From Myxococcota bacterium (lineage in GTDB: Bacteria; Myxococcota_A; SURF-8; G963663525): a DNA stretch of 64,000 bases. Below, in pieces: positions 46,675-52,414 of this stretch; position 1 is the stretch's first letter; every line of letters starts with the position of its first letter. The notes beneath the pieces were generated by a model that was not told the origin of the DNA, made no database searches, and saw only the letters and a list, made by a program, of their open reading frames with translations. Made by a program: the position numbers and the translations under genes. The stretch is from positions 128,001 through 192,000 of the forward strand of contig CAXXVK010000010.1 of the NCBI GenBank assembly GCA_963676915.2. Direction: 5' to 3'.

Positions 46675-49600
46675 TTACTTTTTCCAGGCGTAGGGACCGT
46701 CGGGTAGGGGATTGGTCTTTATCGAGGGTTTCTGGATGTCGTGCCTTGCGGAGCGGTCGTAGATCTGGCTTATGATATCTTCGCCGGTTTTTTCCTGCCA
46801 GAGCAGGGTCTGACCGTAGGTCTGTTCGAAAATCAGGCTTTTGGGATTCTCGGGCTGCCCGGTTTTGGAAAACACCGCCAGCACCCAGTCTCCATCTCCG
46901 AACGTTGCCGGTTGGAGATCGTTACGAAGCTTGCCCGACCATTGCAACAAACGAAAAACCTGGCTCAGACGGTTGGCGTCGGGTGTGAGCTCGATGCGGA
47001 TCTTGTCCGGTGCGTTCCGATTGAGCCAATCCACGGTTCCCAGTGGGATCGTGCACTCGACCCCAAGCGGCCAGTTTTTCCCTCCCGCTCCGAGAATCAG
47101 TGAATGCACGGAGTGGGTCGAGGAAAGATGAGGATAGGCGGACGACAAAAAGGCGATCTGTAACAGCACCACGAGCGCTCCGATACCCGGAGCCACCGCC
47201 TTGGCGAGTTTGCCGCTATCCGCTGGTAGCAGGTTTGGAATGATGGTTTCCAAGGCTGCGTATCCGTAAGCCGCCAAAACGACGACGAAAGGCAGAGGCA
47301 GGAAAAACAAGCCTTCGTTCCCCGGACCGTCGAAAGCCAGACCGAGCAGAATCAGGCCGATGACAAGCACTCCGGCGTGAATGAAATCGGCCTGGTGAGG
47401 TCGGGTGTCGAGTTTGTATCCGGCTGCCGCATCGGACCACAGGAAATGGAGCAACGCTACAATACCTGTTACAGCCAGCAAGAGCATCAGGCCGGTTATC
47501 GACGCAAAAGCCATGGCAAAGCGTGTCGAAGCCGGAAGCAGCAGACCCGAAGCCATCGAAGCGACCGAATTCTGGTACACGTTCATGCTTGGTCCACGGG
47601 AGAGATACAGCCGAATCTGCTCGAAATCCGCCAGCCAGAAGCTTGGCCAGCAAAGCATTAGAATTACAGGAGAAAGCAGCAGCACTAACAGAGTCAACCA
47701 TGCAGCACGGCGGCCTGTATCCATATCGAGATCGGGGTAAGCGTCGTCGTTGCCCAGGTGTGCCAGATGTTTGATCGGTGTCCAGGCGAACAGTGGTGCC
47801 GTAAGCAGAAGGGGAGGCCACATTCCCGTTGCCAGACCGAAAGACAGCCCGAAAAGCGGAATATACAGGAGGTTGTGTTCGGATTGTTTTGAAAAATAAT
47901 ACGCTGTAAACAGCGCCGAGGTGATCGCGACAACAGGAAGTGCACGGTGAGAAAACTCGAAGAAAAACGGGGAGGTAGCCAATATCATCGGGGCGAGGAT
48001 ACCCGCAGCCAGCCCCAGACGGTCATTGGTAAAACGAAACACCATGAACAACAGCCAGGCGGCGAGTAGTGCGAAGGAGAAGCGACCGGCGTCCAGTTCT
48101 CCCATGGTTTTTGTAAGATAACTCAGTCCTAACGTGCCCAGCGAGGTTACGATGGCGCTTCCATCCGGACCCTTGGCGATGTGGTCCGCTTTCGTTTCCG
48201 TGGCGTCGTAAAATGCCCCGATGGCTTTGTCCGCTGTTTCGATTCCCAACCCGTTGGCGAGTTTGTAGGCGAACGAGGAGGAATGCAGCACGGTTTCCAC
48301 TTCCCGATAACTAAGCCCCGAATGGTCGATCGTCCCCCACATCACGTAAGCGAAGACCACCGCCAGCAATACTCCTACGATTCGTCGTTTCTTGGAGAAC
48401 AGGGTTTCGGAAAACGTGTCTTCCTTGAGTTCCGAAATGGAGGAAATCGTTGCCGTGGCCGTTCGTCGAAGTTCATCCTCCGAGGACGCCTCTTCCCTGG
48501 TACGGATCGGCAGGGTATCCTCCGATTCGCTGGAACGAGGGCGTTGGGTTGTCGAACGTCGAACCGGCACTTCTCGAACGGCTTCCGTTTCGTGGGTGAT
48601 GCGGGAGTGTCCGTTGCTTGTTTCGACCCGGTATGGATCACTCACCTCCCGGCGGGTAGCCGGTTTTTCGGGGAGAGGTCGCGCATCGACGACGGTAGAA
48701 ACCTCCGATGGCGGCGTCATCTCCAATTCGACCGATTCTCTAGCCATTTCAACATCATAGACCGGTTGCAAGCTGTCCATGGTTGCGGCTAGCGGCTCGA
48801 GTTCGATTGTGGTATCGGGTGTCGTTTTCGTTGTAGTAGGTTGTTCCTTGAGGGGTTTCGTCGGAACATGCAGCGGTTCGGCATCAAGGGGTTCGAGTTC
48901 GGGGATCGCATTTTCCGAACTGGGTGTTACGGTGGTTTCTTCCAGTATCCAAGCCGATTCTGTGGCACCGGTTTTTTCGTGATCTTCCGGGATGTCCATC
49001 GGAAGTTCCGACAAGTCCCCGGAATCGATGGCGGTTCGTCGCACGGAACGTCCGGGATCTTTCGAAAGGCCGTTTTCTCCGGTATCCCAATGGGGCAATG
49101 GGGCAAATGGCAAAGTTTCGGATAGGGCTTCGAGGGCGTCGGCGAATTCGTGGGCCGACTGGTATCGTTCGTCCGGTTCGCGACAGACGGCGCGGGCGAT
49201 GACTCGTTCCAGATCCTTCGGCACCATCCTGTATTGACGGATGGAAGGAAGAGATTCCTTGTGGGCGCGCATCAACGCTTGAATCTGCTCGACCAGTTCC
49301 GCTTTTTGCGGAACATCGAAGGGCAATTCTCCCGAGAGGGAAACGAAAAGCACCAACCCAAGCGCGTAAATATCGCGCAAACGAGACATTTTCAGCCAAG
49401 TGTCTTCATCGACATCCTTCGCACCTTGTCCCGTCTTGCTGTAAAACGTCTCTGGAGGTAGATATTCCAGCGTTCCTACGTGCAGGCCGGAACTGGTTAC
49501 TCCGGCATCCGCAAAACGGCGCGCCAGACCGAAATCCAGCAGTTTGACAGTACCGTCCTCTTCGATAAACAAGTTGCTGGGTTTGATATCCCGATGGCTG

Positions 49601-50004
49601 ATGCCGTGATCGTGGGTATGAGCCAGTGCTCGAGCCGCTTGTAACGCAAACGATACGGCCTGACCGGGAGTCAACATGTCCAATCGCCGAATCCACGTCG
49701 CCAAAGACGACCCTCTGAGCAGTTCCATCACGACGAAAAGCTGTCCATCGCACTCGAATGGGGGTTCTGCACTTGGAAGATTGGGGTGTTTTAACGACAA
49801 CATCAACGCGGATTCGCGCAAGAAGCGGGTGACGTTCTTTTCTTCAGACATCAGGCGGGAGTGAATGATCTTGATCGCACGATATTGGTCCGGGACCAAG
49901 GCATGTTTCGCTTTATAGACGACCCCCATGCCTCCGCGACCGATTTCATCGAGGAAAATCCACTCGCGAATGTGCTTACCGATCATCGATTCCTCGGCCA
50001 CCAA
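46675..50004 (-). CDS. Hanks-type Ser/Thr kinase fused through a disordered linker to a GT-C-like polytopic membrane domain
   Basis: GRGGMG, AIK, HRDIKPSN, DFG, GTLEYLPPE; C-terminal ~560 aa align by eye with the 17116-19107 protein; alternative start ATG 49986. Confidence 0.88.
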   Translation of the reverse strand: MVAEESMIGKHIREWIFLDEIGRGGMGVVYKAKHALVPDQYRAIKIIHSRLMSEEKNVTRFLRESALMLSLKHPNLPSAEPPFECDGQLFVVMELLRGSSLATWIRRLDMLTPGQAVSFALQAARALAHTHDHGISHRDIKPSNLFIEEDGTVKLLDFGLARRFADAGVTSSGLHVGTLEYLPPETFYSKTGQGAKDVDEDTWLKMSRLRDIYALGLVLFVSLSGELPFDVPQKAELVEQIQALMRAHKESLPSIRQYRMVPKDLERVIARAVCREPDERYQSAHEFADALEALSETLPFAPLPHWDTGENGLSKDPGRSVRRTAIDSGDLSELPMDIPEDHEKTGATESAWILEETTVTPSSENAIPELEPLDAEPLHVPTKPLKEQPTTTKTTPDTTIELEPLAATMDSLQPVYDVEMARESVELEMTPPSEVSTVVDARPLPEKPATRREVSDPYRVETSNGHSRITHETEAVREVPVRRSTTQRPRSSESEDTLPIRTREEASSEDELRRTATATISSISELKEDTFSETLFSKKRRIVGVLLAVVFAYVMWGTIDHSGLSYREVETVLHSSSFAYKLANGLGIETADKAIGAFYDATETKADHIAKGPDGSAIVTSLGTLGLSYLTKTMGELDAGRFSFALLAAWLLFMVFRFTNDRLGLAAGILAPMILATSPFFFEFSHRALPVVAITSALFTAYYFSKQSEHNLLYIPLFGLSFGLATGMWPPLLLTAPLFAWTPIKHLAHLGNDDAYPDLDMDTGRRAAWLTLLVLLLSPVILMLCWPSFWLADFEQIRLYLSRGPSMNVYQNSVASMASGLLLPASTRFAMAFASITGLMLLLAVTGIVALLHFLWSDAAAGYKLDTRPHQADFIHAGVLVIGLILLGLAFDGPGNEGLFFLPLPFVVVLAAYGYAALETIIPNLLPADSGKLAKAVAPGIGALVVLLQIAFLSSAYPHLSSTHSVHSLILGAGGKNWPLGVECTIPLGTVDWLNRNAPDKIRIELTPDANRLSQVFRLLQWSGKLRNDLQPATFGDGDWVLAVFSKTGQPENPKSLIFEQTYGQTLLWQEKTGEDIISQIYDRSARHDIQKPSIKTNPLPDGPYAWKK

Positions 50005-50273: not shown

Positions 50274-50486
50274 TCAATCCTCGGCGTTGATTTTCAGCGG
50301 AGCTTTGGTGACTTTGCCGGAACGGATGCAGCTCGTACACACGGTTTTGCGCGTGACGGTTCCGTCTTCGAACACCCGAATCTTCTGCACGTTGGGGCGG
50401 AAGACACGGCGGGAGGAATTGTTCGCGTGGCTGCGATTGTTACCGGTCATCGGACCTTTGCCGCAAATTTCGCATTTCCTGGACAT
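50274..50486 (-). CDS. rpmB: 50S ribosomal protein L28
   Basis: [10 protein letters not shown]...GNNRSHANN...F.PNVQ...VCTSCIR. Confidence 0.96.
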
Positions 50487-50707: not shown

Positions 50708-50737
50708 TTGACAATTTGTTCTTGGATAGGATAGCAT
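50708..50737 (+). promoter_or_regulatory. Possible sigma70 promoter
   Basis: TTGACA-18 nt-TAGCAT upstream of ATG 50811. Confidence 0.45.
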
Positions 50738-50810: not shown

Positions 50811-51677
50811 ATGCCCGCCAAGAAAAAAACGGAAACGAAACCTCGAAAAGCCACGAAAACCCAGGCAAAAGAAGCGAAAAAAACGACGGTAAAATCGAAA
50901 ACCAAGGCGTCGAAAAAGGCGAAAACATCGAAACCTGCCAAAGAAGCCAAAGAAAAGAAAAAAGCCGAAACGACCGAAGTAGTGAAAAAGACTGCGAAAA
51001 AGGCTACGAAAAAGAAAGCGACCCCGAAGGTGGAAAAAAAGGCGGCACCCAAGAAGACATCTACAAAGAAAGCAACAACCACCGCTAAAAAGAAACCGGC
51101 GACGAAAAAGAGTACGGCGAAGTCTGCACCGAAGAAAACGACCAAGGCGGCCACGAAAAAGAAAAAAGCGGCTCCCGAGACGGACAGCTATGTTACCGAA
51201 TCCGGTTTGAAGCAGAAAAGCAAAGCGCCGCTGTTTACGCTTCCCGCCTCTACCGGGATGAAAATAAGCCTCAAGGAGATCAAAGGCGAGCGCGTGGTGG
51301 TATTGTTTTTCTATCCCAAAGACGACACCCCCGGCTCCGCGTTGCAAGCCAAGGATTTTCAGAAATTCAAAGACGAATTCGCCACCAACGGAGCGATTTT
51401 GTGCGGAATCAGCGGCGACACGATGGAGAGCCACGAGGAATTCGCCGAGCAAAACGGTCTGACCTTCCCGCTTTTGGTGGACAAAGATTTCAGGGTGGCG
51501 AAAAAATACGGAATCTACGGTGAAAAAACGCTGTTCGGACAAAGCTTTTTCGGTATTACCCGCACCACCTTCGTGATTGGTAAAAATGGACGAATTCTGA
51601 AGATTTTCCCCAATGTCAAAATCAAGGGACATGTTGCGAAAGTCGTGGAATACATTAAGGATTTAAATTCCAAATGA
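50811..51677 (+). CDS. BCP/PrxQ-like protein with N-terminal Lys/Ala/Thr-rich histone-H1-like extension; peroxidatic Cys replaced by Ser
   Basis: ~120-aa K/A/T-rich tract, then APLFTL, FFYPKDDTPGS, GISGD, RTTFVI. Confidence 0.88.
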   Translation: MPAKKKTETKPRKATKTQAKEAKKTTVKSKTKASKKAKTSKPAKEAKEKKKAETTEVVKKTAKKATKKKATPKVEKKAAPKKTSTKKATTTAKKKPATKKSTAKSAPKKTTKAATKKKKAAPETDSYVTESGLKQKSKAPLFTLPASTGMKISLKEIKGERVVVLFFYPKDDTPGSALQAKDFQKFKDEFATNGAILCGISGDTMESHEEFAEQNGLTFPLLVDKDFRVAKKYGIYGEKTLFGQSFFGITRTTFVIGKNGRILKIFPNVKIKGHVAKVVEYIKDLNSK

Positions 51678-52414
51678 CCCATAATGCCGCCGGAAACTAC
51701 CCCGGACCGCTGTTGATCGTCGGATCGGGAAAAAACATCGGGTTTCATCTGGCGCGGCGGCTTTTGGATCGAGGCGCAACGCTATACCTTACCTATCGTA
51801 GTGATGCCCAGGCCGTGGACGATCTGCGGGCGCAGTATCCCGAACAAGTCCTCGAAACCTTTGTTTTCGATGGCAGCGACTCATCGAGTATTTCCGAAAT
51901 GTTTCGGGCGATTCGAGAGCGAGAAGAAGGTTTGTATGGTGTTATCGACACCGTAGGACCGTTTACGAGAAAACCGCTCGAACAGACCGACCCCGATGTC
52001 TTCGGCGATCTGGTGCAAGGCAATCTGGTACAGGCTTATCATGTGGCACATCACGCTTATCCGCTGCTGAAGAAGCGCGGGGGCGGGCGGCTTGTGTTTT
52101 TTACCTTCGCCGGTGTCGAAAAACTGGCCGCCTACAGCCGTATCGGAGCCTATGCCGCTGCGAAAACCGCGTTGCTCGCCCTTGTACGCTCCATGGCGGT
52201 GGAATGGGCGGACGATGGCGTCAGCGTCAACACCCTCGCACCGGGACTGATTCGTGGAACGGATGAAGATCAGTTTCCCGCCTCCATGAGGGATCGGAAC
52301 GACCGCAAAACCGGACTGGCCGACATCGCCCGAGCCGTGGAGTTTTTACTTGACCCGGAAAACCGCAAAGTTACGGGGGTGAATCTCACCGTATCCGGCG
52401 GTTTTGGCTGGTGA
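51674..52414 (+). CDS. Short-chain dehydrogenase/reductase
   Basis: GSGKNIG, YAAAK, VNTLAPG, VTG..L.VSGG. Confidence 0.9.
   Translation: MTHNAAGNYPGPLLIVGSGKNIGFHLARRLLDRGATLYLTYRSDAQAVDDLRAQYPEQVLETFVFDGSDSSSISEMFRAIREREEGLYGVIDTVGPFTRKPLEQTDPDVFGDLVQGNLVQAYHVAHHAYPLLKKRGGGRLVFFTFAGVEKLAAYSRIGAYAAAKTALLALVRSMAVEWADDGVSVNTLAPGLIRGTDEDQFPASMRDRNDRKTGLADIARAVEFLLDPENRKVTGVNLTVSGGFGW

What the first reader, a model, noticed from the sequence alone, without database searches (positions are those of the whole stretch)
50811..51677. Histone-H1-like tail fused to a BCP peroxiredoxin lacking its peroxidatic cysteine
About 120 aa of PAKK/KKAT-type repeats precede a BCP domain whose PxxxTxxC motif reads PKDDTPGS (TCC at 51336-51338, not TGC or TGA). 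The following residues (ALQAK vs the usual TxEAC) also diverge and the resolving Cys is absent, arguing against a single-base error. The only Cys is in AILCGIS. Inference: a non-peroxidatic Prx fold reused as a nucleic-acid-binding scaffold or chaperone. It is divergent from rpmB and coupled to an SDR.
Basis: partly seen in the sequence, partly recalled or inferred. Interest (0 to 1): 0.7.

Follow-up and report, generated by a model that had tools for sequence, protein, structure and literature searches.

The report
Lysine-tailed peroxiredoxin lacking its catalytic cysteine
Two species of one bacterial genus keep, under selection, an antioxidant-type enzyme whose catalytic cysteine has become serine and which carries a long positively charged tail, so it is probably a natural dead enzyme reused to bind DNA or similar polymers.

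Summary
ORF 50811-51677 encodes a 129-aa disordered, basic tail (37% Lys, net +40) on a well-folded BCP/PrxQ domain with Ser at the peroxidatic position. It is not a sequencing error: the syntenic orthologue in the second genome of the genus also has Ser, by another codon (TCG vs TCC). The domain is under purifying selection after the loss (pN/pS 0.16), a sigma-70-like promoter is conserved, and both genomes keep an intact second BCP.

Of 145 tailed BCP rows collected, 142 keep Cys; the 3 with Ser are all from this lineage. Among 401 phylum genomes the Ser motif occurs in 2, the Cys motif in 254. The SDR and rpmB neighbours are genus-level synteny only.

Best reading: a lysine-tailed BCP paralogue, probably polyanion-tethered like PfnPrx or Dot5, lost thiol chemistry once and persists as a non-catalytic DNA/polyanion-binding protein. 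Loss of peroxidase activity is well supported but unassayed; the new role is inferred. Similar tails also sit on a hydrolase and an acyltransferase of this genome, which weakens the DNA reading. Verdict: new variant of a known kind, narrow in range.

The parts
50708..50737 (+). sigma-70-like promoter (TTGACA, 18 nt, TAGCAT)
   Evidence: 10 of 12 consensus match (4 sites found, 2.5 expected, so not significant alone). The same two hexamers, 17 nt apart, stand upstream of the orthologue in G001 although the rest of the intergenic DNA has diverged. Function inferred.
50811..51677 (+). gene for the lysine-tailed, Cys-to-Ser BCP/PrxQ-fold protein (288 aa, P0001)
   Evidence: orthologue P0002 in G001 starts at an equivalent ATG
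50811..51197 (+). basic low-complexity tail, residues 1-129 (Lys 37%, Thr 19%, Ala 18%, net +40), predicted disordered
   Evidence: AF2 gives no secondary structure and pLDDT about 50 over residues 1-110; no Pfam family at E<=1
51198..51677 (+). BCP/PrxQ-fold domain, residues 130-288
   Evidence: Pfam AhpC-TSA, NCBIfam PRK09437 128.7 bits, under the cut-off of 140, AF2 and Foldseek
51315..51338 (+). PxxxTxx[C>S] motif: Pro169 and Thr173 kept, peroxidatic Cys replaced by Ser176 (TCC, 51336-51338)
   Evidence: the G001 orthologue has TCG
51339..51353 (+). first turn after the site (ALQAK): T>A (98% conserved column) and E>Q (91%); no helix-2 resolving Cys
51402..51404 (+). Cys198, the only Cys; on a central beta strand at a column that is hydrophobic (L/I/V/F/Y) in 370 of 378 rows; found only in the three Ser rows
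   Evidence: burial is inferred, no coordinates were available
51444..51446 (+). Ala212, the helix-3 resolving-Cys position of the closest relatives
51561..51563 (+). Arg251, the conserved catalytic Arg, kept
   Evidence: 377 of 378 rows have Arg
50274..50486 (-). rpmB (ribosomal protein L28), divergent neighbour; synteny only within the genus
51674..52414 (+). short-chain dehydrogenase overlapping the stop codon; adjacent only within the genus

Best explanation
A natural pseudo-peroxiredoxin that works as a non-catalytic polyanion-binding protein, most likely nucleoid-associated. Shown: the class carries a BCP paralogue that usually bears a lysine-rich tail, beside an ordinary untailed BCP. 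In the ancestor of this genus the tailed copy lost its peroxidatic and resolving cysteines, changed fast, and has since been held by purifying selection. From established Prx chemistry: without the peroxidatic Cys it cannot run the thiol-peroxidase cycle, and the intact BCP, AhpC-type, Prx6-type and Gpx-type genes of the genome can cover that job. Inferred: the disordered +40 tail binds DNA (or RNA or polyphosphate) without sequence specificity, coating, bridging or shielding it. The basic folded domain (net +7) serves as a stable head and second binding or partner surface, its Pro-Thr-Arg pocket perhaps still holding an anion.
For: Ser in two species by different codons, with nearby synonymous sites diverged, and in a third sequence, P0121. 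Domain pN/pS 0.16 (95% bootstrap 0.10-0.23) against 0.10 (0.04-0.18) for the intact paralogue. Domain identity 82%, against a median of 79% for 95 orthologue-like pairs from 166 G001 ORFs, 36 of which score as high or higher. Tree: the Ser pair nests in the class clade of mostly tailed BCPs on a stem of 0.64 with tips of 0.07 and 0.11; the intact paralogue's stem is 0.15 (quick tree). Intact second BCP in G000 and G001. Promoter-like site conserved. Tail length and charge kept (+40, +34) at 47% identity. Analogues: PfnPrx, a chromatin-bound Prx with a lysine-rich H1-like C-terminus (PMC3064226); yeast Dot5 binds nucleosomes and free DNA (PMC13347269); the H1-like domain of DdbA binds and condenses DNA (PMC3643593). 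Cys-to-Ser at this site abolishes PrxQ peroxidase activity (PMC6590489).
Against: No binding, localisation or expression data. Lysine-rich stretches also sit on an alpha/beta hydrolase, an acyltransferase, an AsmA-family and a GYF-domain protein of this genome, so the tail may be a lineage habit. The tail has no Pfam H1/HC2 match. Only two species, so one event and no independent repeat among the tailed BCPs. The rate increase is significant in only 3 of 6 non-independent relative-rate tests, and tailed relatives that keep Cys also have long branches (G005 0.55, G003 1.04). Keeping Pro, Thr and Arg of the pocket is not needed for plain DNA coating. Synonymous sites are near saturation (pS 0.63).
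Confidence: 0.55

Rival explanations
1. Vestigial enzyme on a generic tail. The tail is a lineage habit, and the dead domain is conserved only because it must stay folded and soluble; no new function evolved.
For: 14 lysine-rich hits in the genome, on proteins of unrelated function. Redundant intact BCP. Other tailed members of the class also deviate next to the Cys (C-K in G005, C-E in G003) or lack a resolving Cys (G004).
Against: A useless gene would be expected to decay or be lost over a divergence that nearly saturates synonymous sites. Constraint is close to that of the active paralogue, the promoter-like site is kept, and residues 150-160 and 163-177 are identical in the two species.
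Confidence: 0.15
2. Holdase chaperone or protein-interaction module. The Prx fold binds unfolded proteins or a partner such as thioredoxin, and the tail positions it on ribosomes, RNA or the nucleoid.
For: PrxQ DR0846 is a monomeric holdase, and its single Cys mutants keep that activity (PMC6590489). The chaperone activity of Anabaena Alr4641 does not need its cysteines (PMC4349727). The gene is next to rpmB in both species.
Against: The DR0846 double mutant, the closer model for a protein lacking both cysteines, almost lost holdase activity. Alr4641 is an oligomeric 2-Cys Prx of another subfamily. The rpmB link is not kept outside the genus.
Confidence: 0.13
3. The pocket still works. It binds peroxide, a lipid hydroperoxide or an oxyanion as a sensor or sink, or does changed chemistry through Ser176 or the newly gained Cys198.
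For: Pro169, Thr173 and Arg251 are kept in all three Ser rows. Cys198 appears only in those rows, out of 378. The top sequence hits in the PDB are the engineered Cys-to-Ser PrxQ structures (3ixr, 3gkm, 5io2).
Against: Cys198 lies on a central strand at a hydrophobic column, not at any of the five known resolving positions (PMC4749874). The column after the site (T>A) and the conserved Glu (E>Q) also changed, which looks like decay of the catalytic geometry. Pocket residues may be kept for structure.
Confidence: 0.15
4. Artefact: a sequencing or assembly error, or a recoded codon that is read as Cys or Sec.
For: TGC to TCC is one base; the only covering contig has depth 3.9 and may be the source; the genome has tRNA-Sec and SelA.
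Against: G001 has TCG, two changes from either Cys codon. tRNA-Sec has the ordinary UCA anticodon, and a normal 90-nt tRNA-Ser(GGA) is present. The two downstream sequences fold differently.
Confidence: 0.02

Closest known systems
BCP/PrxQ peroxiredoxins (Pfam PF00578; NCBIfam PRK09437; Xanthomonas and Xylella PrxQ, helix-3 resolving-Cys type)
   Same: Fold (TM about 0.9), Pro, Thr and Arg of the active site; descends from a clade with peroxidatic Cys and helix-3 resolving Cys.
   Different: Ser for the peroxidatic Cys, no resolving Cys, T>A and E>Q after the site, and a 129-aa basic tail. It resembles the engineered inactive mutants (3ixr, 3gkm), but occurs naturally and is conserved.
Plasmodium falciparum nuclear peroxiredoxin PfnPrx/MCP1 (PMC3064226; abstract, outline and passages seen)
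   Same: Prx domain joined to a lysine-rich, H1-like extension; proposed tether to chromatin.
   Different: PfnPrx is an active peroxidase, eukaryotic, with a C-terminal tail and an acidic middle region; this protein is bacterial, N-tailed and lacks the catalytic Cys.
Saccharomyces cerevisiae Dot5/nTPx (PMC13347269; abstract and passages seen; PDB 2a4v)
   Same: BCP-fold protein with an N-terminal basic extension; binds nucleosomes and free DNA, with the folded part proposed as a second DNA contact.
   Different: Dot5 is reported as a thiol peroxidase and uses a short Arg-rich HMGN-like motif for the histone acidic patch, which a bacterium does not have (own knowledge).
Bacterial proteins with H1-like domains: Streptomyces DdbA (PMC3643593) and Pseudomonas AlgP (PMC9239181); abstracts and outlines seen
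   Same: Long Lys/Ala-rich region fused to a globular domain; binds DNA (DdbA, AlgP) or associates with polyphosphate granules (AlgP).
   Different: Partner domains are unrelated (DksA-like in DdbA). AlgP has true KPAA repeats; this tail is Thr-rich and not a repeat array.
Lysine-tailed bacterial BCPs that keep Cys (found here; annotated only as 'peroxiredoxin Q/BCP' by their sources)
   Same: Same two-part build; 142 rows, scattered over the tree, with source labels including Myxococcales, Eisenbacteria and Phycisphaerales.
   Different: They keep the peroxidatic Cys and mostly a resolving Cys (105 of 142).

Membership tests
Peroxiredoxin (functional), BCP/PrxQ subfamily | Thioredoxin-like Prx fold of BCP type | tested here: met
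   Pfam AhpC-TSA 115 bits, cut-off 26; AF2 pLDDT 96; Foldseek TM 0.88-0.94 to the top BCP/PrxQ entries
Peroxiredoxin (functional), BCP/PrxQ subfamily | Peroxidatic Cys in Pxxx(T/S)xxC (called essential in PMC4749874) | tested here: not met
   Ser176, TCC; TCG in the orthologue
Peroxiredoxin (functional), BCP/PrxQ subfamily | Conserved Pro, Thr/Ser and Arg of the active site | tested here: met
   Pro169, Thr173, Arg251
Peroxiredoxin (functional), BCP/PrxQ subfamily | Resolving Cys in helix 2 or 3 (optional; about two thirds of PrxQ have one, PMC4749874) | tested here: not met
   Lys181 and Ala212
Peroxiredoxin (functional), BCP/PrxQ subfamily | NCBIfam PRK09437 equivalog cut-off (140 bits) | tested here: inconclusive
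   128.7 bits, but the intact paralogue also misses at 135 and P0003 passes at 145.9
Peroxiredoxin (functional), BCP/PrxQ subfamily | Thioredoxin-dependent peroxide reduction | not testable with these tools
   needs an assay
Selenocysteine peroxiredoxin (TxxU) | In-frame UGA at the site, read by tRNA-Sec | tested here: not met
   codon is TCC/TCG; tRNA-Sec has anticodon UCA
Histone H1-like bacterial proteins (Hc2, AlgP, DdbA type) | Long Lys/Ala/Pro-rich, highly basic, disordered region | tested here: met
   37% Lys, net +40; disordered in AF2
Histone H1-like bacterial proteins (Hc2, AlgP, DdbA type) | Match to Pfam HC2 (PF07382) or a true repeat array | tested here: not met
   no family at E<=1; tails of 3 of 4 relatives match HC2 weakly, under cut-off; three weak TRF arrays
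Histone H1-like bacterial proteins (Hc2, AlgP, DdbA type) | Sequence-independent DNA binding and condensation | not testable with these tools
   needs EMSA and microscopy
Chromatin-tethered peroxiredoxins (PfnPrx, Dot5) | Prx domain plus basic extension | tested here: met
Chromatin-tethered peroxiredoxins (PfnPrx, Dot5) | Intact catalytic Cys | tested here: not met

The most novel reading that the evidence does not exclude
Many bacteria carry an undescribed class of nucleoid- or polyanion-tethered BCP peroxidases, the counterpart of PfnPrx and Dot5, and this genus shows its end point: a peroxiredoxin turned into a purely architectural nucleoid protein, in which the former peroxide pocket (Pro-Thr-Ser-Arg) now grips phosphate of DNA, RNA or polyphosphate. 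The class would then hold a natural series (no tail; tail with 2 Cys; tail with 1 Cys; tail with no catalytic Cys) for testing how an enzyme becomes a chromatin protein.
Probability: 0.25. Interest if true: 0.75.

Novelty: new variant of a known kind. Interest (0 to 1): 0.5.

Why it matters
The peroxidatic Cys is treated as the defining residue of peroxiredoxins, and their non-catalytic roles are usually studied with engineered Cys-to-Ser mutants. Here nature made that mutant and kept it, which argues that the BCP fold has a selectable role without thiol chemistry. Tailed relatives with two, one or no catalytic cysteines allow a direct comparison in vitro. The search also exposed a broad set of lysine-tailed bacterial BCPs that my paper searches did not find described. 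The limits: one event, one genus known from genome sequences, and no measured function.

Tried and rejected
Reads: three runs of one study, all contigs; no RNA holder listed. X1 matches but may be the source; X2 leaves the codon uncovered; X3 holds only a 43-base piece of the SDR. Not used as evidence.

Homodimer prediction of the domain: no answer, score 0.00, mark 0.42; no evidence either way.

The search for related loci in genome contigs returned 80 distant BCPs (39-46% identity) and no close relative. My motif parser could not read some loci (printed 'none'); these were not counted.

Recoding as Cys or Sec rejected. A 74-nt 'tRNA-Ser(CGA)' call has a poor cloverleaf and does not bear on TCC.

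Tail-and-Ser co-occurrence rejected. Functional coupling to the SDR not supported. Loss because of a strictly anaerobic life not supported: both Ser genomes encode heme-copper oxidases (4 of 10 class genomes do).

The careful tree did not finish; the quick tree (SH-aLRT only) was used, no clade test was run, and the G004 second BCP was left out because my parser missed it. The distance from Cys198 to the pocket could not be measured.

ESM Atlas: only generic AhpC/TSA clusters of 215-244 aa. Earlier findings by sequence and by words: nothing on this protein. Two papers I wanted (a Prx active-site survey and a PrxQ structure paper) are not held. PMC3514251 (passages) gave nothing on a Cys-to-Ser BCP. 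My recollection that Anabaena Alr4642 lacks the peroxidatic Cys was not confirmed.

Full report
OBSERVATION. The ORF at 50811-51677 (+) gives 288 aa. Residues 1-129 are 37% Lys, 19% Thr and 18% Ala, net +40, and AF2 models them without secondary structure at pLDDT about 50. They are low-complexity, not a repeat array (PAKK once, KKAT three times; three weak arrays), and match no Pfam family at E<=1. Residues 130-288 are a BCP/PrxQ domain: Pfam AhpC-TSA E 2.5e-33, best NCBIfam match PRK09437, AF2 pLDDT 96, Foldseek TM about 0.9 to solved BCPs. The motif reads PKDDTPGS, with TCC at 51336-51338. The best PDB sequence hits are engineered Cys-to-Ser PrxQ structures.

IS THE SERINE REAL? Reads were uninformative: the one covering contig may be the source, and the second run has a gap at the codon. 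Comparative evidence is decisive. The other genome of the genus (G001) has a syntenic orthologue (kinase, rpmB, BCP, SDR) reading PKDDTPGSAEQARDF, with TCG at the site and different synonymous codons around it. A third sequence, P0121, differs from it at 4 tail positions and also has Ser. Recoding is rejected: tRNA-Sec has the usual anticodon and a normal tRNA-Ser(GGA) is present.

IS THE GENE MAINTAINED? Between the two Ser-bearing species the domain is 82% identical, dN 0.108 and dS 1.39. Because dS is near saturation I rely on pN/pS: 0.16 (0.10-0.23), against 0.10 (0.04-0.18) for the intact BCP paralogue. Of 166 G001 ORFs from 13 regions, 95 had an orthologue-like hit; the median identity is 79%, and 36 of 95 reach 82.4% or more. 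The tail is 47% identical but keeps its length and charge. A TTGACA/TAGCAT site at 50708-50737 recurs upstream of the orthologue in otherwise diverged DNA. This looks like a normal working gene.

WHAT CHANGED. I aligned all 376 proteins then held from three searches and one cluster look-up (378 rows; one protein gave three rows; near-duplicates not removed; tailed forms enriched because two searches used the tail). At columns conserved in at least 80% of Cys-bearing rows, P0001 differs at seven: G136K, Y166F, C176S, T177A, E179Q, K214Q, L279V. Pro169, Thr173 and Arg251 are kept. Three of the seven changes lie in the four residues from the catalytic position on. The helix-3 resolving Cys of the closest relatives is Ala. 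The only Cys (198) is unique to the three Ser rows, at a column that is hydrophobic in 370 of 378 rows, on a central strand; I infer that it is buried.

DOES THE TAIL GO WITH THE LOSS? No. With a tail defined as at least 35 residues, 10 Lys and net +12: N-tail with Cys 133 rows, C-tail with Cys 9, N-tail with Ser 3, no tail with Cys 228, other 5 (a fragment, three rows of one degenerate multi-domain protein, one Trp). Tailed and untailed rows are intermixed on a quick tree of 90 rows, which suggests repeated gain or loss of tails. In 401 genomes of the phylum, the pattern ending in TCN occurs in 2 (G000, G001), in AGY in 0, and in TGY in 254. A metagenome scan for the TCN form gave 25 loci; 2 encode a full-length Ser BCP, the same untailed domain, 36% identical. 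So Ser BCPs are rare, arise independently at least once elsewhere, and are not tied to tails.

HISTORY IN THE CLASS. The class holds 10 genomes; its closest named relative, P0004, is labelled Myxococcales by its source, and earlier notes call the lineage Myxococcota (unchecked). Seven genomes carry a member of one BCP clade: G003 (N-tail, C-E), G004 (N-tail, no resolving Cys), G005 (C-tail, C-K, two Cys), G007 (no tail, two Cys), G009 (N-tail, two Cys) and the Ser pair (SH-aLRT 82-88 for the enclosing forks, 100 for the pair). Six of the seven also have a separate untailed BCP with Cys; none was found in G009 with this query. The Ser pair sits on a stem of 0.64 with tips of 0.07 and 0.11; the paralogue's stem is 0.15. 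Relative-rate tests exceed chi-square 3.84 in 3 of 6 comparisons for the Ser protein and 0 of 6 for the paralogue (not independent). The pattern, fast change and then constraint beside a redundant active copy, fits a change of role, though the tests are only partly significant. G000 also has AhpC-type, Prx6-type and Gpx-type genes (names from recalled motifs) and heme-copper oxidases.

NEIGHBOURS. rpmB and the SDR flank the gene in both Ser genomes only. SDR orthologues in G003, G004, G005 and G007 lie on other contigs or far from the tailed BCP, and G006 has the SDR without a hit for this BCP. They give no clue.

MECHANISM. Shown: conserved loss of both redox cysteines, intact fold, constraint, redundancy. 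From the literature: Pxxx(T/S)xxC with Arg is essential (PMC4749874, passages), and Cys-to-Ser abolishes PrxQ peroxidase activity (PMC6590489, passages). I put loss of thiol-peroxidase activity at about 0.9. Inferred: the tail binds a polyanion. Basic extensions go with chromatin binding in PfnPrx (proposed, not shown in vitro; PMC3064226) and Dot5 (PMC13347269); H1-like regions bind DNA in DdbA and are needed for polyphosphate granule spacing in AlgP. Against over-reading: a genome scan found 14 lysine-rich hits. Of 12 scanned, four are nucleic-acid proteins (two HU, UvrA, a sigma-70 factor), six have other domains (zinc ribbon, hydrolase, acyltransferase, AsmA, GYF, and a Pro-rich TonB that is not a true tail) and two have no family. 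The tail therefore points to DNA only moderately. I commit to a non-catalytic, nucleoid- or polyanion-binding protein at 0.55, with pocket-based sensing or chemistry 0.15, vestige 0.15, holdase or partner module 0.13, artefact 0.02.

COMPARISON AND NOVELTY. It is a BCP/PrxQ by fold and descent but fails the defining Cys, so it should not be filed as a functional peroxiredoxin. It is built like PfnPrx and Dot5 but is bacterial and lacks the catalytic Cys. Ten full-text searches listed no paper on a natural Cys-to-Ser BCP or on lysine-tailed bacterial BCPs. I saw most hits as listings only, the library lacks most subscription papers, and I opened no supplements. Verdict: new variant of a known kind; interest 0.5, held down by the narrow range and the unmeasured function.

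Noticed in passing
protein ids (for example P0004, P0050, P0148, P0232, P0234): Lysine-tailed BCPs that keep the catalytic Cys are common: 142 rows, N- or C-tailed, scattered over the BCP tree. They may be bacterial nucleoid-tethered peroxidases; not found described in my searches.
   Followed up: partly
L139, L142, L144, L146, L155 (metagenome contigs): A truncated BCP start ending in TPGS-stop, the stop followed by TGC, then a conserved spacer and a small ORF. In 4 of the 5 loci a second BCP gene begins about 450-550 nt downstream (whole in 2, cut by the contig end in 2). Unexplained.
   Followed up: no
L150:1289-1759 and L153:125-595 (oriented as): An independent, untailed full-length BCP with Ser at the peroxidatic position (PRDGTPGSTLEA) and several other cysteines; the same domain in two contigs.
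   Followed up: no
G000:C65:21979-22344 (L008): AhpC/TSA-family gene with an in-frame TGA at the redox site; the genome has tRNA-Sec and SelA, so probably a selenoprotein.
   Followed up: partly
G000 contigs C2, C10, C11, C22, C24, C27, C32, C51, C52, C53, C60 (L186-L196): Lysine-rich tails on many unrelated proteins of this genome, including two HU proteins, UvrA, a sigma-70 factor, a hydrolase and an acyltransferase.
   Followed up: partly
P0245: A 663-aa protein with three tandem degenerate BCP-like domains, none with Cys at the aligned peroxidatic column.
   Followed up: no
P0315: BCP with Trp at the peroxidatic column, possibly a UGA selenocysteine codon translated as Trp by the gene caller.
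   Followed up: no
G000:C67:141512-141585 (-): ARAGORN calls a 74-nt tRNA-Ser(CGA) with a poor cloverleaf and no long variable arm; probably a false or antisense call.
   Followed up: partly
window 46675-50004 (-): 1109-aa Ser/Thr kinase with a hydrophobic, probably membrane-spanning C-terminal half, downstream of rpmB; syntenic in G001 (69% identical).
   Followed up: no
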